Assembly (NCBI RefSeq): GCF_902652985.1
Contig: NC_047023.1
Span: 7,192,001-7,256,000, forward strand
DNA from: Pecten maximus
Lineage: Eukaryota
DNA length: 64,000 bases
Direction of reading: 5' to 3'
Made by a program: the position numbers
Shown: one piece after another, positions 48,601 through 63,600 of the stretch
Layout of the letters: the number at the start of each line of letters is the position of its first letter
Numbering within the stretch: the first letter of the stretch is position 1

Positions 48601-51600
48601 TCTATGGAATATCAAGCAGACATTTTAATATTATTGTAGATAAACTCTTCGGGATAACGCGTTAATCTGCTCAGATTTACAGTAACTAAATTTAAACTGA
48701 AAGATGCTAATATATTTTGTGTATTTTGTATAATCCTTTGAGATTGCAGGTGATAGTCACTGCTGGTAGACTTTTGTCCCCGGGGTTTACACTAACCCGC
48801 ATGCCATCTGGAAATACCTTTGAATACTAGCACGGTTCAGAATATACAGCCATGTGTTTGACGTTCAATTAAGATCGAATTCGGCGACTATTTCCTCTCT
48901 CTAACTAGATATTGGTGTTTTTGTCGACCTATTTAAGTTCTCTGTGTCGCCTTCTATGTATCACCAATTTAAGCCCTGAAGATTGCATACGAGTCCCTAG
49001 AAGGACGAAACAGCTGTATAATACAGTTAAATTCTTTTAAGCCCTTCTGCATCTAACTCTAGATTTAAATCTACATAATACCAGGATTGTAGATATACAA
49101 GTCGGTGAAAACCATGGGAATGTTTCGTGGTCGATATCATATCTCATTTGGAAATAGTGTATTCCCTTGTGCGATATGAAATCATGCGTATCCGATGATA
49201 GAGGATATGCCTGGTGGTTTCCTTGTCACCACCATCACTCTCATTTTAAGGATGTCATTTTGACCTATAGATTGGTACGGCGTCGTCAAAAAAAACATCT
49301 TGGCCCAATTGTTCAAAAGGTGATTAGCTTAATCACTTGATTAGTGAAAATTTCACTTCTCATTTGTTGAAAAACCTGAGTGTATCGTTTTAAAATTATG
49401 CCAGTTGGAACAGAACTAAGAATTACAGAATTTCATAAAGTTTTGTCAAGTAAGTTCTGCCAGAAGTTATTATACCGGGATTGAAAAAAAATGTTGTTAA
49501 AATGTGATTAGCCTAATCATCTTTTGAAAATCTGGGTCCTGGTTTTATTCTCATGAAATCCTTTTCCATAGCTATATATAGATCACCATTCAAATTGATA
49601 GTTTTCCGTATGTAGTGTGCCCTTTTTCAATAAGACAATTAAACCTTCTTGCAGATCAACTTACCAATCCAAAAACCAGTTCGTGAATATCAAAGCGAAA
49701 TAAGAATACATGCTAGTTTCACAGTTCTTTTATCAAAATAAGCATTTGACAGCTTTACAAAAGAACCACAAACAACAGCTTGAAGTCGATTCATATTTAA
49801 CATAAAAGTTGATGATATGAGTAAATATCACATAATGCATAACTTATATCACCGGTTCTCACGACATTTTAGTTGATGTTTTTTTTTTGTAATATTACAT
49901 ACATTATACGTTAATGTGTCATTGATATCAATCGTAAATTCTTCAAGATCCGGTAACACTTTCCTTTATGGTTTTTTTTTTTCTTATTTTGTATCTTCCG
50001 TTGTCTTCTGTTTTTTATGACCCGCATGACCCAAGTATATGACTCCTAGTGTGTTTTGATAACACAGCCCGAAATGTCTCCAGTTTATAACTTCGTCTGG
50101 TGTGTTTTTATAAAACAACCCGAAATGTCCCCAGTATTTGACTCATTCTGTTGTGTTTTGATAACACGACCCGAAATGTCCCCAGTATGTAACTCCTTCT
50201 GGTGTGTTCTGATAACACAACCCGAAATGTCCCAAGTATATGACTTCGGCTGGTGTGTTTTTATAACACGAGCCGAAATGTCCTAGTATATGACTTCTTC
50301 TGGATGACCCGACATGACCCCAGTATATAATTCCATTCAGTAGTAAGTATAGTTCGTCTCCGGTAGTCTGGTCCGGATACTGCTGAACCGTGTCGGGTTG
50401 GTTCCGGATTTGTCCTCCCAGATCTCCGATGATCGTCGACTCCTATCGTAACCCGAATTAGAATATCCCCTCTTGTTATTGTTAATACACAACACACAGC
50501 CGAGGATCCCGAGTACCAGTAAGGTCAGAATGACCAGCCACACGATAAAACCTATTATGGTGTTTCCACTGACCAGTCCGGAGCTGTATTGACACTCATT
50601 CTGCCTCTGTGACACCGCTACAAGACAAAACAACACAAGTTACTTATTACATAATACTCAATAAACACTGACCTCCATAAGTTCATAGTGACTTTATCTG
50701 GCAACGTCAAATACATCCAACACCATATCTGACGAGTTTACAGAAATAGAAATACTTGTATTAAGTTATTTTGTTAGATTTGATTTTTGATTAGACAACT
50801 TGACCTTCACCTTGACCTCTACACCACGACCGTAACATCTGGTCTGTTGCCGCCTTGTTTAATTCTGAACCACTTTGATTCATCATGTCAAGACAAAATG
50901 TAAAACGATTCAAAATGTGACCTTGACCTTTAGTCAGCTGACCATCTGTTTAATTCTGACCAACTTTGCGTTATATTGTCATATCAAATGTTCATGGGAT
51001 GTTCAGTAGAAAGATACCAAATATGATCTTGATTTCTGACCCATTGACTTTGACATAAACACACCAGTGAAATTTGAAAAAAAAAATCTGCCATGTACTT
51101 CTCAGGAAATAATATCAAAAACTTCAACTGTCTAAATCCTAGATGGTCACCTGTCGGCCATTTTGTTTCTAGATCAGACTCAAAATCAAAATGACTCGAC
51201 CAGGGATCAAAGAGGAATCTACTAGTGAAGTCTGAGAAATATCATATCCGCATTTCACAAGAAATTGCGATCGAAAACATTAATTATCATAATCGGTCAG
51301 ACATCTTTCCGGATCAGACTCACAATCAAATGTGCACAATTAGGGACCAAAGGGAACCCAAATATGTCCAGTGCTTCTCGGGAAATAGCGACAGCAAGGA
51401 TTGTTTGTGGACGGACGGAGGGACAGACGAAGGACGACAGACGGACAGATGGACGAACGGACCACGGACGAAGAACGATTTGAACAGCCCACCATCTGAG
51501 GATTATGGCTAATAAAGATAAACTTTTGTTTTCAAATGATTAAAGGGTTATAACGTGTAATGGAGTAGGTATCCGTGTGTAGATTATACGTACCTCCAGT

Positions 51601-60600: not shown

Positions 60601-63600
60601 ATTCGAATTGGTGATATCACCTATTCGTTTCATTAAGTGATATCATCTATTCATTTCATTAAGTGATATCATCTATTCGAATGAGTGATATCACCTATTC
60701 AAATGAAACGAATAGGTGATATCACTTTAAAAAGTTCTTAAGTGATATCACCAAATGGGAATAATATCTCATTTTTGCAGTAGTCTAAGGGAGGTAACTC
60801 TCAATTGTTGTAGGTTGGCGTCAGAACAAATGTTGAAAGAAATACTGCTAAATTACAGGATGACATGTCAGTGACATTCTAAACCCACCATATTGATCTG
60901 ATTCTGTACCTAGACCACTCACAATCATTGAAGTATTCCTTACAATAGTTTAGAATTTACTGATTATATAAAGGGCAAAGCTTAAGGAGTGTTCATTTAA
61001 AAATGGCTTAGTTGAAACCGTTTCATTTCTAACCTTGTTTACATCGTTTATTCCAATTATCACGATTTCCGTGAGTAAATGTAGAATAAAGAAGAAAAAA
61101 ATCGCACCACGCATTTTCAAAAGATGCAGGTTCATTGAAATCTATGGAAAATGTCATGGTCGACATGGTGATCCCAGTGGGAAGGTTTCTATCGCGGTAA
61201 TTGCTTCTTTATCGGACTTGGTTCCGTAGTCACTACCCTTGTCCTTGATTTCCTCGAGCATTAACAATTCTAGATTTGACAAAAAAAATAGATTTCTATT
61301 CTCTAATTGGCTCACCACGAATTCGTTTGATGAACGATGAGCATTGAAGGATACTTACCTGTAGTAGGAGTAGTTAACTGGGAATTCCTGAAGCAGAATG
61401 GCACATGTGGGAATCACAAGCCCTGTATTGTGTTCGTGCCTCTACCAATATATGCACATTACCCAAGTTATATGTGATTAAATGCATCTCAACTGCCTTA
61501 CTCCGACGCAAAGCGGCTCTCCAAATTTCGATTTCCAACTCCTCCGACACACAGTGGAATTCTTTGTGTGAATTATCTCGCGGAAATCGTTACAGCCCAC
61601 CTAACAAGAAATCAACAGCCATCGAGGAAGGCTTTACTGTCCTTTAGATAATGTCATATTTTACCTGTGGACCAATAAGGCCCGTTGTCCCCCACAACGC
61701 CTTTCTGACCTCTGGATCCCTGTAGTCCTCTCTCGCCTTTCAATCCGGTCTGGCCCTGCTCCCCGATAAATCCACTCAGATCATCTTCTGCATAAAATGT
61801 GACCATAGAGTGACAGAGAAGTTTCTTTTTAATGAAAACAATTGAATATAATATCGACAGCCGTCTCTCTGTACTACTTACCTACACAAGAGTATCCGTT
61901 ACTCTGAAGAGTAAATCCTTGTCGACAGGAACAAACGAAACTTGTACTTGTGTCAGTACAGTTATGGCTGCAGTAGTTATTTCCTGTATTCGCACAAGTG
62001 CGTTGAATTGGTACTGAAAATGAAACCAACATTAGGAATTGATGTTTTACATTATAAACGAGATAATACAAGTAAAAACAAGAATCCTACGCAAGTTGGA
62101 TCATTACGAAGAAATAGACATATTTTTCACTTCAAGAAATAATGTTAAAAGTAACCAAGACCACACTCACTTAAATATACTCGAAATTCAGCAATACAGA
62201 GCACATACTTTTGATAAATGAGCACGTCAAGAAGTTTGAACTTAATTGGCCCAAGAGAACTGCAGTTATTGCATGGAAACAAATTCTATCTATAGTAACA
62301 GTGACCTTAACCTTTGGACTAGAAAAAAAAACGATCCCATGCAAGCGCTTGTAAGGAAAAACTGTATAAAAATTGAGTTTGATGGCCCCAAAGGAACTTG
62401 CGTTATCACAAGAAACAAATTTTGTATTTTTAGTAACAGTGACCTTGAACTTTGATCTGTGGACCTGAAAAGCAATCCTAAGCGAGCACTTTTAGTAAGA
62501 AAGATCTGCGTGCAGTTTGGTCGGCCCAAGGTTAGTTGGGTTATCGCACGGACCGCGGCCGACGCCGACAGAGTGATACCTATATGTCGCCTACTTTTTG
62601 CAGTCGACAGAATGAGGTCTCGTTATGGAGTTTTGTGGAGAAAATTATATATTTCTAAACGGCGATGTGCTGAACGAATTATACTAATATCTCAAATATG
62701 TTGAAGTGTTGTTGTCTGGTATCGCAAATAAAATCTAATAACATGATTATATAAAGCAAAGTAAACCTGGCAAGCTGCATCATCACCAACAAAATAACTT
62801 CGGATGGTATGTGTCAGGGGGTGACATTACGTCCAGTTATGTTAGCCAAAAATCTTCGTCAGTATTACACAGATAATTCCATATGTATAATTGAATTTCT
62901 AATATTTTTGCAATAAATTGCATTCATTTAATATTGCAATATAGACAGTCCTAAATTCGACCAAAGCCAGTTGTTGGACTTCAAGTTTATCATTTAAGTA
63001 GAAGTTATAAAATTGGGTCAGGTCCGTCCAAAATTCTAAAACATTTCAGAATTTTAGATTTTTGACCACCCAAAATATGTTGATAGTTATTTTTTTAGGT
63101 TTTTGATTAAAACTAAATGAAATATCAAATATCCACAATCGTTTTGATTTTTTAATTATTTGGATTTTTGGATGTTCAGACCGTTGCAGTTCAAATTTCC
63201 AAAATCTCACAACAATCGCGTTGATCTGAAGCACCTGAGTGACCATGTGATTCGGAAAAGCGAAACCGAAAGTAAAGCATGTGACCCATATTTCACATTA
63301 TCTCGGCATTAGATCCGTACGTGGATTTTGTTAGTTTATGATAGAATAATGAAAATAAAGTTGTTCAGATGTGGCCAAGATGTTCTCCAGATGAGAGACA
63401 GACCCCCAAATGAAAGTCAGCCTCTTTAACAATTAAGGGACATTTTGCCTCTTACAGAACACGACATTTTTAGATATCTTTTAATTAAAAATTACATTTT
63501 CCCTTGAAAAACCAAATGCAAGCAATGATAGGAACTTGGTTTAAAACGTTCTGTTTGTCAGATATACACTGCACAATATGTCATAATATGCAGTAAAATA

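What the first reader, a model, noticed from the sequence alone, without database searches (positions are those of the whole stretch)
50337..62013. Type I membrane protein combining a collagen helix with EGF domains (EGF-COL-EGFx3-TM-tail)
Seen: eight exons with GT-AG boundaries (one junction is phase-inconsistent) give EGF, about 59 Pro-poor Gly-X-Y triplets, cbEGF, EGF, an EGF-like module with five Cys, a C-terminal TM helix and a ~50-aa tail with several Tyr. Established: vertebrate membrane collagens (XIII, XVII, XXIII, XXV, EDA, MARCO/SR-A) are type II with an N-terminal TM, and CCBE1 (EGF + collagen) is secreted. Inference: this may be a lineage-specific trimeric receptor or adhesion molecule. 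The Cys in NECQY of the last exon may complete the five-Cys module.
Basis: partly seen in the sequence, partly recalled or inferred. Interest (0 to 1): 0.65.

Follow-up and report, generated by a model that had tools for sequence, protein, structure and literature searches.

The report
Scallop membrane-anchored collagen with EGF modules
This is the back two-thirds of a real king-scallop gene for a cell-surface protein that carries a collagen rod between EGF modules and is anchored by its tail end, a layout shared with other molluscs and not seen in human collagens, but what it does is untested.

Summary
Eight minus-strand exons (62013-50337), all GT-AG, encode EGF, 59 Gly-X-Y triplets (11 Pro in 118 X/Y places), cbEGF, EGF, a five-Cys EGF-like module, one TM helix and a 47-aa tail.

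- **Phase problem:** it is a surplus G inside exon B (123 nt, 122 needed). The +1 frame reads GLIGPQ, as in orthologues.
- **Identity:** the window is Pecten maximus LOC117334298. RefSeq splits the gene at that base into X1 (N-half, then out of frame) and X2 (C-half).
- **Truncation:** the signal peptide, a ~170-aa head domain with no Pfam match and one more EGF lie beyond 64000.
- **Relatives:** Mizuhopecten (670 aa), an unnamed scallop-like record, the gastropod Gigantopelta and unnamed records share head, helix, three EGFs, TM and a tail ending RLPE..YY.
- **Constraint:** Gly columns match in 132 of 132 scallop comparisons, against 42 of 132 at X.
- **Topology:** type I, unlike human collagenous proteins (PMC13138384).

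Best reading: a trimeric rod-like surface receptor or adhesion protein. Trimer, ligand and tissue are untested. I found only automatic names and no paper.

The parts
61882..62013 (-). Exon A, 132 nt, phase 1 to 1: six-Cys EGF module (not the calcium-binding type)
   Evidence: Sequence and exon table. Pfam FXa_inhibition 7.2e-10. 71-72% identical to P0002 231-272 and P0003 214-256. 100% identical to P0004 230-273.
61665..61787 (-). Exon B, 123 nt: acidic linker EDDLS, then the first 12 Gly-X-Y triplets. One nucleotide too long for the frame.
   Evidence: Pfam Collagen 2.6e-07. Matches P0002 274-309 and P0003 258-293.
61681..61683 (-). Run of three G that holds the surplus base. Upstream the frame reads ..GVVGDN. 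From 61682 the +1 frame reads GLIGPQ and ends exactly at the strong donor CAG|GTAAAA in phase 0.
   Evidence: Orthologues read GPTGPQ|GST (P0002) and GPIGQQ|GAT (P0003) at this place.
57661..57913 (-). Exon C, 253 nt, phase 0 to 1: 28 Gly-X-Y triplets
   Evidence: Pfam Collagen 1.7e-18. The RefSeq model P0001 starts at the Met of GMK inside this exon.
57334..57510 (-). Exon D, 177 nt, phase 1 to 1: 19 Gly-X-Y triplets, then FQ, the end of the helix
   Evidence: Pfam Collagen 1.8e-11. The junction GDTG|VTG is as in P0001.
56147..56263 (-). Exon E, 117 nt, phase 1 to 1: calcium-binding EGF module (DVDEC...CVNTVGSYYC)
   Evidence: Pfam EGF_CA 5.8e-09. It is the only one of the four EGF exons that fits the recalled cbEGF pattern.
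55896..56018 (-). Exon F, 123 nt, phase 1 to 1: six-Cys EGF module
   Evidence: Pfam FXa_inhibition 3.5e-11. 82.5% identical to P0002 and 90% to P0003.
51594..51710 (-). Exon G, 117 nt, phase 1 to 1: EGF-like module with five Cys. The usual C-x-C is C-V-P here.
   Evidence: Pfam gives only sub-threshold EGF_CA 0.012. The first four Cys are kept in all 6 aligned family members.
50562..50617 (-). Exon H, first part: juxtamembrane stretch AVSQRQNECQYSSGLVSGN with one Cys
   Evidence: The Cys column is kept in 5 of the 6 aligned members and absent in P0122.
50481..50561 (-). Exon H, middle: transmembrane helix TIIGFIVWLVILTLLVLGILGCVLCIN
   Evidence: The hydropathy maximum of 3.07 is the only C-terminal hydrophobic 19-mer. 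The IGFIVW core is kept in 5 of 6 members; P0122 has IGLIIW.
50340..50480 (-). Exon H, last part: 47-aa cytoplasmic tail that starts with basic residues (NNKRG), has 5 Tyr and ends RLPETNYTYY
   Evidence: The WED/WDD motif and the RLP[ED]..Y..Y C-terminus are kept in 5 of 6 members. The exon is 79% identical to P0002.
50337..50339 (-). Stop codon TGA
49544..49549 (-). First AATAAA after the stop (787 nt downstream): a candidate poly(A) signal
   Evidence: It is a pattern match only.
52046..55881 (-). Tandem array inside intron F-G. Its units repeat the 3' end of exon F plus the donor site, giving 92 decoy copies.

Best explanation
**Shown**
- Window 50337-62013 (minus strand) holds the last eight coding exons of the king scallop gene that RefSeq calls LOC117334298.
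- The whole protein, as seen in its Mizuhopecten orthologue, reads in this order:
  1. signal peptide
  2. a ~170-aa Cys-free head domain of no described family
  3. EGF
  4. EGF (exon A)
  5. an uninterrupted helix-type segment of 58-59 Gly-X-Y triplets (exons B-D)
  6. cbEGF (exon E)
  7. EGF (exon F)
  8. a truncated EGF-like module (exon G)
  9. one TM helix and a ~45-aa tail (exon H)
- This makes it a type I membrane protein with the collagenous part outside the cell.
- The same plan is kept in scallops and in a gastropod.
- In this assembly one surplus G in exon B breaks the frame. That is why RefSeq shows two half-proteins.

**Inferred**
- Three chains wind their Gly-X-Y segments into a triple helix about 50 nm long. 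This rod holds three head domains away from the cell surface on a calcium-stiffened EGF base.
- The head binds an outside ligand. A sugar-bearing surface is the lead from fold look-alikes.
- The strongly conserved TM helix and tail, with the C-terminal RLPE..Y.YY, pass the event on to a cytoplasmic partner or drive uptake.
- In design it works like a collagenous scavenger or collectin-type receptor turned round in the membrane, or like a matrix anchor.
- I think the surplus G is more likely an assembly or allele slip than a dead gene.
For: **Gene structure**
- All introns are GT-AG and the phases fit at 6 of 7 junctions.
- The junctions C-D, D-E, E-F, F-G and G-H are those of the RefSeq model P0001.
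- All 8 exons match P0002 and P0003 in order, at 62-90% identity.

**Topology**
- Hydrophobic leaders are present in P0002, P0004, P0005 and P0122, and there is one C-terminal hydrophobic helix.
- Basic residues follow the helix directly.

**Helix under selection**
- Gly columns are identical in 132 of 132 pairwise scallop comparisons, against 42 of 132 at X and 73 of 134 at Y. Across all five aligned proteins the Gly figure is 458 of 473.
- No interruption occurs in 58 triplets of P0002 and P0003.
- There are 22 charged residues and 4 Lys/Arg-Gly-Glu/Asp pairs. From memory, such pairs stabilise Pro-poor helices.

**Family**
- P0005 (Gigantopelta aegis), P0125 and P0122 share the head, the helix, three EGF modules, the IGFIVW-type TM and, except P0122, the RLP[ED]..YY end.
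- Exon H is among the best-kept exons (79% to P0002).

**Head domain**
- A profile of the head found 9 proteins at E<=0.001 in 1.84 billion. Four of these are cell-surface-type proteins or a fragment carrying the domain 1 to 4 times.
- The Atlas look-alikes by structure are beta-sandwich, lectin-like proteins, with TM-scores of 0.66-0.76. These are leads only.

**Surplus base**
- Exon B is 123 nt.
- The +1 frame gives GLIGPQ ending at the strong donor in phase 0, which matches the orthologues.
- The published P. maximus assembly was built from PacBio Sequel reads with wtdbg2 and then polished with Arrow and freebayes (passages of PMC7191990).
Against: - No trimer was modelled or measured.
- Pro is scarce: 11 of 118 X/Y places. 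Thermal stability is therefore uncertain.
- In scallops the helix has folded EGF modules on both sides. I know of no studied precedent for that.
- Relatives vary the stalk freely. The helix runs from 17 to 59 triplets, P0125 and P0122 add Thr/Pro-rich linkers, and P0126 has heads, linker and TM with no helix at all. So the segment might serve only as a spacer.
- The surplus G is present in the assembly and in RefSeq's own model. This particular copy may truly be disabled.
- No expression, tissue or ligand data were available.
- The fold of the head rests on Atlas look-alikes scoring below 0.9 by features, not on a model of mine.
- The tail has no motif that I could tie to a known adaptor.
Confidence: 0.55

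Rival explanations
1. The family is functional, but the Pecten maximus copy in this window is a recently disabled gene or allele. On this reading the surplus G in exon B is real and no full-length protein is made from this haplotype.
For: The frameshift is in the assembled sequence. The RefSeq model P0004 reproduces it letter for letter, reading exon C out of frame at 100% identity. According to passages of PMC7191990, the assembly was polished with Illumina reads.
Against: Everything else is intact. There are 7 clean GT-AG introns, no stop codon in any exon, and all Gly and Cys columns are kept against the orthologues. The paper says freebayes polishing applied homozygous non-reference calls. 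I infer that a heterozygous indel, or one in a G run, could survive that step. One phase-compatible rescue exists through a cryptic acceptor at 57894, but its pyrimidine tract is poor.
Confidence: 0.2
2. It is mainly a structural matrix or shell-associated collagen of the EGF-domain kind described in Lingula. The membrane anchor would serve only for delivery, and the ectodomain would end up in the extracellular matrix, shell matrix or byssus.
For: The Pfam set (Collagen, EGF_CA, FXa_inhibition, cEGF) is the same as in the Lingula shell-associated collagens (PMC4595640: section 11 and the Fig. 6 legend). EGF-bearing collagenous proteins are again reported in the Lingula shell proteome (passages of PMC13425148). 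A bivalve byssal EGF-repeat protein with a TM region is reported in a passage of PMC11697411.
Against: The TM helix and tail are among the best-conserved parts from scallop to gastropod, which a throw-away anchor would not need. No R-x-K/R-R site lies in the ectodomain of P0001, P0002 or P0003. No protein named Lingula appears among the best 120 hits of the whole-protein search. A helix of 59 triplets is short for a fibre.
Confidence: 0.17
3. The Gly-X-Y segment does not form a triple helix. On this reading the protein is a monomeric, mucin-like stalked receptor and the segment is a flexible spacer.
For: Pro fills only 11 of 118 X/Y places. Relatives swap in or add Thr/Pro-rich linkers, and helix length varies from 17 to 59 triplets.
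Against: A spacer would not keep Gly at every third place. Gly is kept in 132 of 132 scallop comparisons while X is kept in 42 of 132, and there is no interruption over 58 triplets in two species. Pfam Collagen scores run up to 1.7e-18 for a single exon.
Confidence: 0.07
4. It is an artefact, made either of chance open frames strung together or of two neighbouring genes (a collagen and an EGF-TM gene) read as one.
For: RefSeq itself shows two separate proteins for this locus.
Against: Those two models overlap on exons C-D and differ only by frame. Single proteins that span everything exist in Mizuhopecten, in Gigantopelta and in unnamed records. All 8 exons are colinear with them.
Confidence: 0.01

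Closest known systems
Lingula anatina shell-associated collagens with EGF domains (Luo et al. 2015, PMC4595640)
   Same: They come from a lophotrochozoan. They combine a collagen triple-helix repeat with EGF, EGF_CA and FXa_inhibition modules, made by domain shuffling (abstract, section 11 and Fig. 6 legend). Here the EGF exons are all phase 1-1. From memory, that is the classic mark of shuffled modules.
   Different: They are described as shell-matrix (secreted) proteins, and the word 'transmembrane' does not occur in that paper's main text. No head domain, TM helix or tail is mentioned. Homology to the scallop protein was not tested, and none named Lingula was among the best 120.
[quoted passage not shown]
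   Same: It joins EGF/cbEGF modules with collagen repeats in one chain. It is listed among human collagen-like proteins in the table of PMC13138384.
   Different: From memory, it is secreted without a TM helix, its EGFs lie N-terminal to two short collagen repeats, and it acts in VEGF-C activation. Here a 59-triplet helix lies between EGF modules, followed by a TM helix and tail. Sequence kinship was not tested.
Collagenous type II membrane proteins: class A scavenger receptors (SR-A, MARCO, SCARA3/5), collectin-12, ectodysplasin, gliomedin, and membrane collagens XIII, XVII, XXIII and XXV
   Same: They have a cell-surface anchor, an extracellular triple-helical stalk and a globular ligand-binding head. 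This is the design I propose here. They are listed as 'Transmembrane' collagen-like proteins in the table of PMC13138384.
   Different: All are type II, with the helix C-terminal to the TM (passage of PMC13138384). Here the order is reversed: signal peptide first and TM last. The heads are also different; from memory those are SRCR, C-type lectin, TNF-like or olfactomedin domains. Those proteins have no EGF modules.
Thrombomodulin / CD93 / CD248 / CLEC14A group (recalled, not tested)
   Same: They are type I membrane proteins with an N-terminal lectin-type head, EGF and cbEGF modules, a stalk, one TM helix and a short tail. By PDB sequence search, the EGF pair of exons E-F resembles the cbEGF-EGF pairs of fibrillin, LRP2, protein C, factor X and LDLR.
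   Different: Their stalk is mucin-like rather than collagenous, and their head is a C-type lectin domain. No sequence link was found or sought beyond the generic EGF hits.
Fibrillin-2, collagen alpha-5(VI) and collagen alpha-1(XXVII): the automatic names these proteins carry
   Same: They share cbEGF modules with fibrillin and Gly-X-Y repeats with collagens.
   Different: Pfam found no TB/8-Cys, VWA or fibrillar C-propeptide family in P0001, P0002, P0003 or P0005. The names reflect best-hit transfer, not membership.

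Membership tests
Type II collagenous membrane proteins (MACIT collagens XIII/XXIII/XXV, XVII, SR-A/MARCO, collectin-12, EDA, gliomedin) | Type II orientation: a signal-anchor near the N-terminus, with the Gly-X-Y repeats C-terminal to it | tested here: not met
   Leaders sit at the N-terminus of P0002, P0004 and P0005, and the only other strong hydrophobic stretch is C-terminal, after the helix and EGFs. 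In the window the TM lies in the last exon. The defining feature itself comes from a passage of PMC13138384.
Type II collagenous membrane proteins | Extracellular run of at least 9 continuous Gly-X-Y triplets | tested here: met
   59 triplets over exons B-D, and 58 uninterrupted triplets in P0002 and P0003.
Type II collagenous membrane proteins (MACIT) | Furin-type dibasic shedding site in the ectodomain (abstract start of PMC10538796 in the listing) | tested here: not met
   No R-x-K/R-R in the ectodomain of P0001, P0002 or P0003. The single RSRR of P0001 lies in the cytoplasmic tail.
CCBE1 | EGF/cbEGF modules and collagen repeats in one chain | tested here: met
   Pfam run per exon.
CCBE1 | Secreted protein with no membrane anchor (recalled) | tested here: not met
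   TM helix and 47-aa tail in exon H.
CCBE1 | Sequence orthology | not tested
   I had no CCBE1 sequence in hand. No protein of that name was among the best 120 of the 4413 hits.
Fibrillins (the RefSeq name 'fibrillin-2-like') | TB (8-Cys) domains among long cbEGF arrays (recalled) | tested here: not met
   Pfam found only Collagen and EGF-type families in P0001, P0002 and P0003.
Collagen VI / collagen XXVII (UniRef and RefSeq names of the relatives) | VWA domains (VI) or a fibrillar C-propeptide (XXVII) (recalled) | tested here: not met
   Neither family was found in P0002 or P0005.
Lingula-type EGF-domain collagens | Collagen combined with EGF, EGF_CA and FXa_inhibition modules | tested here: met
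   compared with the Fig. 6 legend and section 11 of PMC4595640.
Lingula-type EGF-domain collagens | Presence in shell matrix and expression in mantle | not testable with these tools
   No expression or proteome data were at hand, and paper supplements were closed.
Molluscan head-helix-EGF-TM family (defined in this report from P0002, P0003, P0005, P0125, P0122) | N-terminal ~170-aa Cys-free head domain | tested here: met
   It is not in the window. It is present in P0004, the RefSeq N-half model of the same gene, which is 100% identical to exons A and B and 71% identical to the head of P0002.
Molluscan head-helix-EGF-TM family | Helix ending G-P/S-x-F/Y-x-D/E-x-D/N-E-C, followed by three EGF-type modules | tested here: met
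   Alignment of 6 members, and exons D-G of the window.
Molluscan head-helix-EGF-TM family | TM helix with an IGFIVW core and a tail ending RLP[ED]..Y..Y-COOH | tested here: met
   Exon H. The feature is kept in 5 of 6 aligned members; P0122 has IGLIIW and a short, unrelated tail.

The most novel reading that the evidence does not exclude
Molluscs built their own collagen-stalked surface receptor with the membrane anchor at the opposite end from every vertebrate example. It would be a homotrimer whose helix is nucleated next to the C-terminal EGF/TM base. It would carry three copies of a previously undescribed beta-sandwich head that recognises glycans on microbes or matrix, and it would signal or internalise through a conserved Tyr-rich tail ending in RLPE..YY. 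On this reading it is an independent invention of the scavenger-receptor or collectin design, and the first type I membrane collagen family.
Probability: 0.3. Interest if true: 0.7.

Novelty: new variant of a known kind. Interest (0 to 1): 0.5.

Why it matters
A review passage says that every human protein with a helix-length Gly-X-Y run is either secreted or type II, apart from one nuclear exception (PMC13138384). A conserved family with the anchor at the C-terminus and folded EGF modules on both sides of the helix would therefore raise several questions:
- How is a triple helix registered and nucleated in that setting?
- Does the membrane-proximal base act as the nucleus?

The family would also add a new head domain to the list of invertebrate surface-recognition modules.

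On the practical side, the finding shows that one base in the P. maximus assembly hides this architecture. The gene appears as two "isoforms", and the automatic names (fibrillin-2-like, collagen VI, collagen XXVII) mislead.

Tried and rejected
**Missing 5' exons in the window**
- I scanned 62014-64000 for an ATG followed by a hydrophobic stretch and a phase-1 donor. Nothing convincing turned up; the best hit was a weak 2.24.
- tblastn of P0002, P0003 and P0004 finds nothing upstream of exon A.

**More collagen exons in the introns**
- There are no further Gly-X-Y runs of 4 or more triplets in any frame of the window.

**Rescuing the B-C junction by other splice sites**
- The only phase-compatible pair uses a cryptic acceptor at 57894 with a poor pyrimidine tract. 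It would leave GPY-WST-GVN.
- The phase-0 donors at 61699 and 61696 are weak and would break the triplet register.
- I rejected both in favour of a surplus base.

**Naming the head domain**
- Pfam finds nothing, either in whole proteins or in 8 single domains scanned at E<=10.
- PDB sequence searches find nothing below E = 0.35.
- Two of the 9 profile hits were rejected. P0124 is a cystatin-repeat protein. P0127 is a GH115_C repeat protein with an hhalign probability of 0.7%.
- P0128 is a possible distant relative at 62%.
- The 100% match of P0126 is by construction, because one of its repeats is in the profile.

**Exon H and the EGF base**
- Exon H against the PDB gave only chance TM look-alikes.
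- The Atlas search on the EGF-TM-tail part gave generic EGF clusters scoring 0.85 or less.

**Structure and complex prediction**
The one accepted job failed. So there was no model and no fold search.
- The trimer job (alignment A3, residues 270-500, three copies) gave no verdict.

**Database limits**
- The cluster look-up for the names and taxa of unnamed hits was switched off.
- I did not scan genome contigs, because it holds only bacteria and archaea.

**Literature**
- Eight searches found no paper on this gene and none on a type I membrane collagen with EGF modules. "LOC117334298" occurs in 0 papers.

**RNA genes**
- No tRNA and no Rfam family in the window.

Full report
**What is in the window**

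The window has no N and is about 36% G+C. It carries invertebrate-type repeats. It is not human. Exon H matches "fibrillin-2-like isoform X2 [Pecten maximus]" at 99% (P0001). Exons A and B match [quoted passage not shown] at 100% (P0004). So the window is king scallop DNA, and the finding is the 3' two-thirds of that gene on the minus strand.

**Check of the observation**

Stop-to-stop frames and the sequence itself show eight exons. Their borders are listed:

| Exon | Window coordinates | Length | Phase |
|---|---|---|---|
| A | 62013-61882 | 132 nt | 1 to 1 |
| B | 61787-61665 | 123 nt | enters in 1 |
| C | 57913-57661 | 253 nt | 0 to 1 |
| D | 57510-57334 | 177 nt | 1 to 1 |
| E | 56263-56147 | 117 nt | 1 to 1 |
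| F | 56018-55896 | 123 nt | 1 to 1 |
| G | 51710-51594 | 117 nt | 1 to 1 |
| H | 50617-50340, then TGA | – | – |

- All seven introns are GT-AG.
- I searched the model exon by exon and left out the step of joining the exons. Where a whole protein was needed I used database proteins as they stand.
- Pfam on the eight separate translations gives EGF-type families for A, E and F, and Collagen for B, C and D. G gets only a sub-threshold EGF_CA hit (0.012) and has five Cys. H gets nothing above any cut-off.
- H has a single strongly hydrophobic stretch and a 47-aa tail with five Tyr.
- The helix part counts 59 triplets, with Pro in 8 X and 3 Y places.
- No other Gly-X-Y run of four or more triplets exists in any frame of the 64 kb.

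**The phase conflict**

- Exon B enters in phase 1 and is 123 nt long, so it leaves in phase 1. Exon C can only start in phase 0, at its good acceptor (T-rich tract, AG at 57915-57914).
- In the starting frame exon B ends ...GVVGDNGPYWST, which breaks the triplet rule.
- Shifted by one base from 61682, it reads GLIGPQ and stops exactly at the strong donor CAG|GTAAAA in phase 0.
- The two scallop relatives read GPTGPQ|GST and GPIGQQ|GAT at this spot.
- So one G too many sits in the run 61681-61683.
- RefSeq carries the same base. Its X1 model reads exons A and B, then exon C in the wrong frame at 100% identity to the window, and stops in exon D. Its X2 model starts at a Met inside exon C and runs to the true stop. 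The two "isoforms" are two halves of one gene.
- I cannot tell from the window whether the base is an assembly slip, one allele, or a real disabling change. All other exons are intact.
- The published assembly came from PacBio Sequel reads assembled with wtdbg2 and polished with Arrow and freebayes (passages of PMC7191990). A later paper reports fragmented gene models in the first annotation (passages of PMC8437780).

**The whole protein and its relatives**

The Mizuhopecten yessoensis protein P0002 (670 aa, named "fibrillin-2-like" and "Collagen alpha-5(VI) chain") lines up with all eight exons in order, at residues 231-670. Before that it has a hydrophobic leader, a Cys-free domain of about 170 aa, and one more EGF. 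None of this is encoded in 62014-64000, so the window cuts the gene.

An unnamed record, P0003 (654 aa), has the same plan. Its longest contig is 2,543 nt, too short for a gene with these introns. I take it to be a transcript, which puts the helix and TM exons on one mRNA in a related scallop.

A whole-protein search scored 8000 candidates and found 4413 with E<=1e-5. Among the 120 listed, only 4 combine Collagen with EGF-type families:
- P0002
- P0003
- P0004
- P0005, "collagen alpha-1(XXVII) chain-like [Gigantopelta aegis]", a gastropod

The rest are generic collagen repeats, mostly from microbes.

A profile of the head domain, searched against 1.84 billion representatives, found 9 proteins at E<=0.001:
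- P0004 and P0002, the query's own proteins.
- P0125 (606 aa): leader, head, Thr/Pro linker, helix, three EGFs, TM and a tail ending RLPEVNYY.
- P0122 (1143 aa): four heads with Thr/Pro linkers, a 17-triplet helix, three EGFs, TM and a short tail.
- P0126 (655 aa): three heads, a Ser/Thr-rich stretch and a TM, with no helix or EGF.
- P0123: a 95-aa fragment.
- P0128: a possible distant relative (hhalign 62%).
- P0124 (cystatin repeats) and P0127 (GH115_C repeats, hhalign 0.7%), both rejected.

An alignment of six C-terminal parts (P0001, P0002, P0003, P0005, P0125, P0122) shows these shared features:
- the end of the helix, G-P/S-x-F/Y-x-D/E-x-D/N-E-C
- three EGF-type modules
- a juxtamembrane Cys (5 of 6)
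- an IGFIVW-type TM core
- a WED/WDD motif and RLP[ED]..Y..Y-COOH (5 of 6)

P0004 was left out of this alignment because of its out-of-frame tail. P0122 was left out of alignment A3 because of its four heads.

**Signs of function**

- In alignment A3 the Gly columns of the helix are identical in 132 of 132 pairwise scallop comparisons. X places match in 42 of 132 and Y places in 73 of 134. Over all five proteins Gly is kept in 458 of 473. That is the signature of a triple helix under selection, not of a loose spacer.
- The helix is Pro-poor but rich in charged residues (22) and has four Lys/Arg-Gly-Glu/Asp pairs. From memory, such pairs stabilise Pro-poor helices.
- At 0.286 nm per residue (recalled), 177 residues give about 50 nm.
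- Only exon E fits the recalled calcium-binding EGF pattern.
- Exon G keeps the first four Cys of an EGF in all six members.
- No furin-type site lies in the scallop ectodomains.
- Exon H is 79% identical to Mizuhopecten, among the best-kept exons. Its core persists in gastropods at 40-41%.

**The head domain**

The head domain has no Pfam family and no PDB relative by sequence.

The ESM Atlas holds P0004. By features, its nearest clusters are unnamed sponge and annelid proteins of 173-206 aa, scoring 0.88-0.89. By its own predicted model, the nearest are unnamed actinobacterial proteins (TM-score 0.75-0.76) and Lectin_like- and Laminin_G-bearing bacterial proteins (0.66-0.67). These are leads to a beta-sandwich, possibly sugar-binding, fold and no more. 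I could not make a model of my own.

**How it most likely works**

*Shown:* it is a type I single-pass membrane protein with an extracellular head, EGF modules and a conserved Gly-X-Y segment, kept across bivalves and a gastropod.

*Inferred:*
- Three chains form a ~50 nm triple helix on a base of three EGF modules next to the membrane, holding three heads outwards.
- The head binds an external ligand.
- The conserved TM and tail couple to a cytoplasmic partner or to uptake.

The design resembles collagenous scavenger receptors and collectin-12, with the membrane anchor at the other end, or a matrix anchor.

*Rivals:*
- a disabled copy in this species
- a Lingula-like matrix or shell collagen whose anchor is transient
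- a non-helical spacer

**Comparison with what is known**

- A review that scanned the human proteome for 9 or more continuous Gly-X-Y repeats states that all such proteins but one nuclear protein have a signal peptide or a type II TM domain, with the repeats on the C-terminal side (PMC13138384, section 4 passage and table). The scallop protein fails that defining orientation, so it is not a member of those families, though it may work like them.
- CCBE1 shares the EGF-plus-collagen mix but is secreted (recalled).
- The closest thing in print is the group of Lingula shell-associated collagens with EGF domains (PMC4595640: abstract passage, all of section 11, figure legends). A 2026 proteome paper mentions them again (passages of PMC13425148). 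The main text of PMC4595640 has no occurrence of "transmembrane".
- The automatic names (fibrillin-2-like, collagen VI, collagen XXVII) are not supported. No TB, VWA or fibrillar C-propeptide family is present.
- PDB sequence hits are only generic collagens and cbEGF-EGF pairs.
- Eight literature searches found nothing on this gene or on a type I membrane collagen with EGF modules.

**Verdict**

This is a real, conserved molluscan gene. It is a new variant of a known kind: a collagen-stalked surface protein with reversed topology, EGF modules on both sides of the helix in scallops, and an undescribed head domain. Function is inferred from anatomy only. Interest is moderate, at 0.5.

Noticed in passing
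window 52046-55881 (intron F-G, minus strand): A 3.8-kb tandem array of 33- and 45-nt units. Each unit repeats the last 19 nt of exon F plus the first 8 nt of the intron. The 27-mer occurs 93 times at up to 2 mismatches, against 0 expected. The three copies nearest the true donor (+33, +78, +123 nt) are in phase and reached without a stop, so using them would add 11, 26 or 41 residues in frame. Later copies lose the phase. The result is an array of decoy donor sites seeded from an exon-intron junction.
   Followed up: partly
window 50337-62013 versus RefSeq models P0001 and P0004: RefSeq lists two 'isoforms' of LOC117334298 that are really the two halves of one reading frame, broken by the surplus G. 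X1 ends in about 90 out-of-frame residues read from exons C-D.
   Followed up: yes
window 44070-47888 (+): One open frame of 1272 aa with endonuclease (Exo_endo_phos 8.1e-12), reverse transcriptase (RVT_1 1.4e-35) and zf-RVT domains. It is a LINE-type retrotransposon that looks intact.
   Followed up: partly
window 2388-4291 (+): Broken frames of an LTR-type retroelement pol. The RNase H part at 3584-4291 scores RT_RNaseH 2.1e-32.
   Followed up: partly
window 31860-33306 and 39336-43517: Two arrays of a 63-nt satellite, 23 and 66 copies. Their consensus units look like reverse complements of each other by eye (not aligned), and the G/C skew is strong and of opposite sign in the two regions.
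   Followed up: no
window 50026-50303, 56369-56870, 60077-60704: Further tandem arrays inside the gene: 51 nt x 5.5 just 3' of the stop codon, 44 nt x 11.4 in intron D-E, and 22-nt units containing GATATC x 27 in intron B-C.
   Followed up: no
exons A, E, F, G (window 61882-62013, 56147-56263, 55896-56018, 51594-51710): All four EGF exons are single-module exons of phase 1-1. The gastropod relative P0005 has no EGF between head and helix. So modules of the exon A kind were gained or lost after bivalves and gastropods split.
   Followed up: partly
proteins P0126 and P0128 (not in the window): The head domain also occurs three times in a 655-aa protein with a Ser/Thr-rich stalk and a TM helix but no helix or EGF (P0126). 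It may occur twice in a 440-aa protein (P0128, hhalign 62%). It therefore looks like a wider, undescribed cell-surface module.
   Followed up: partly
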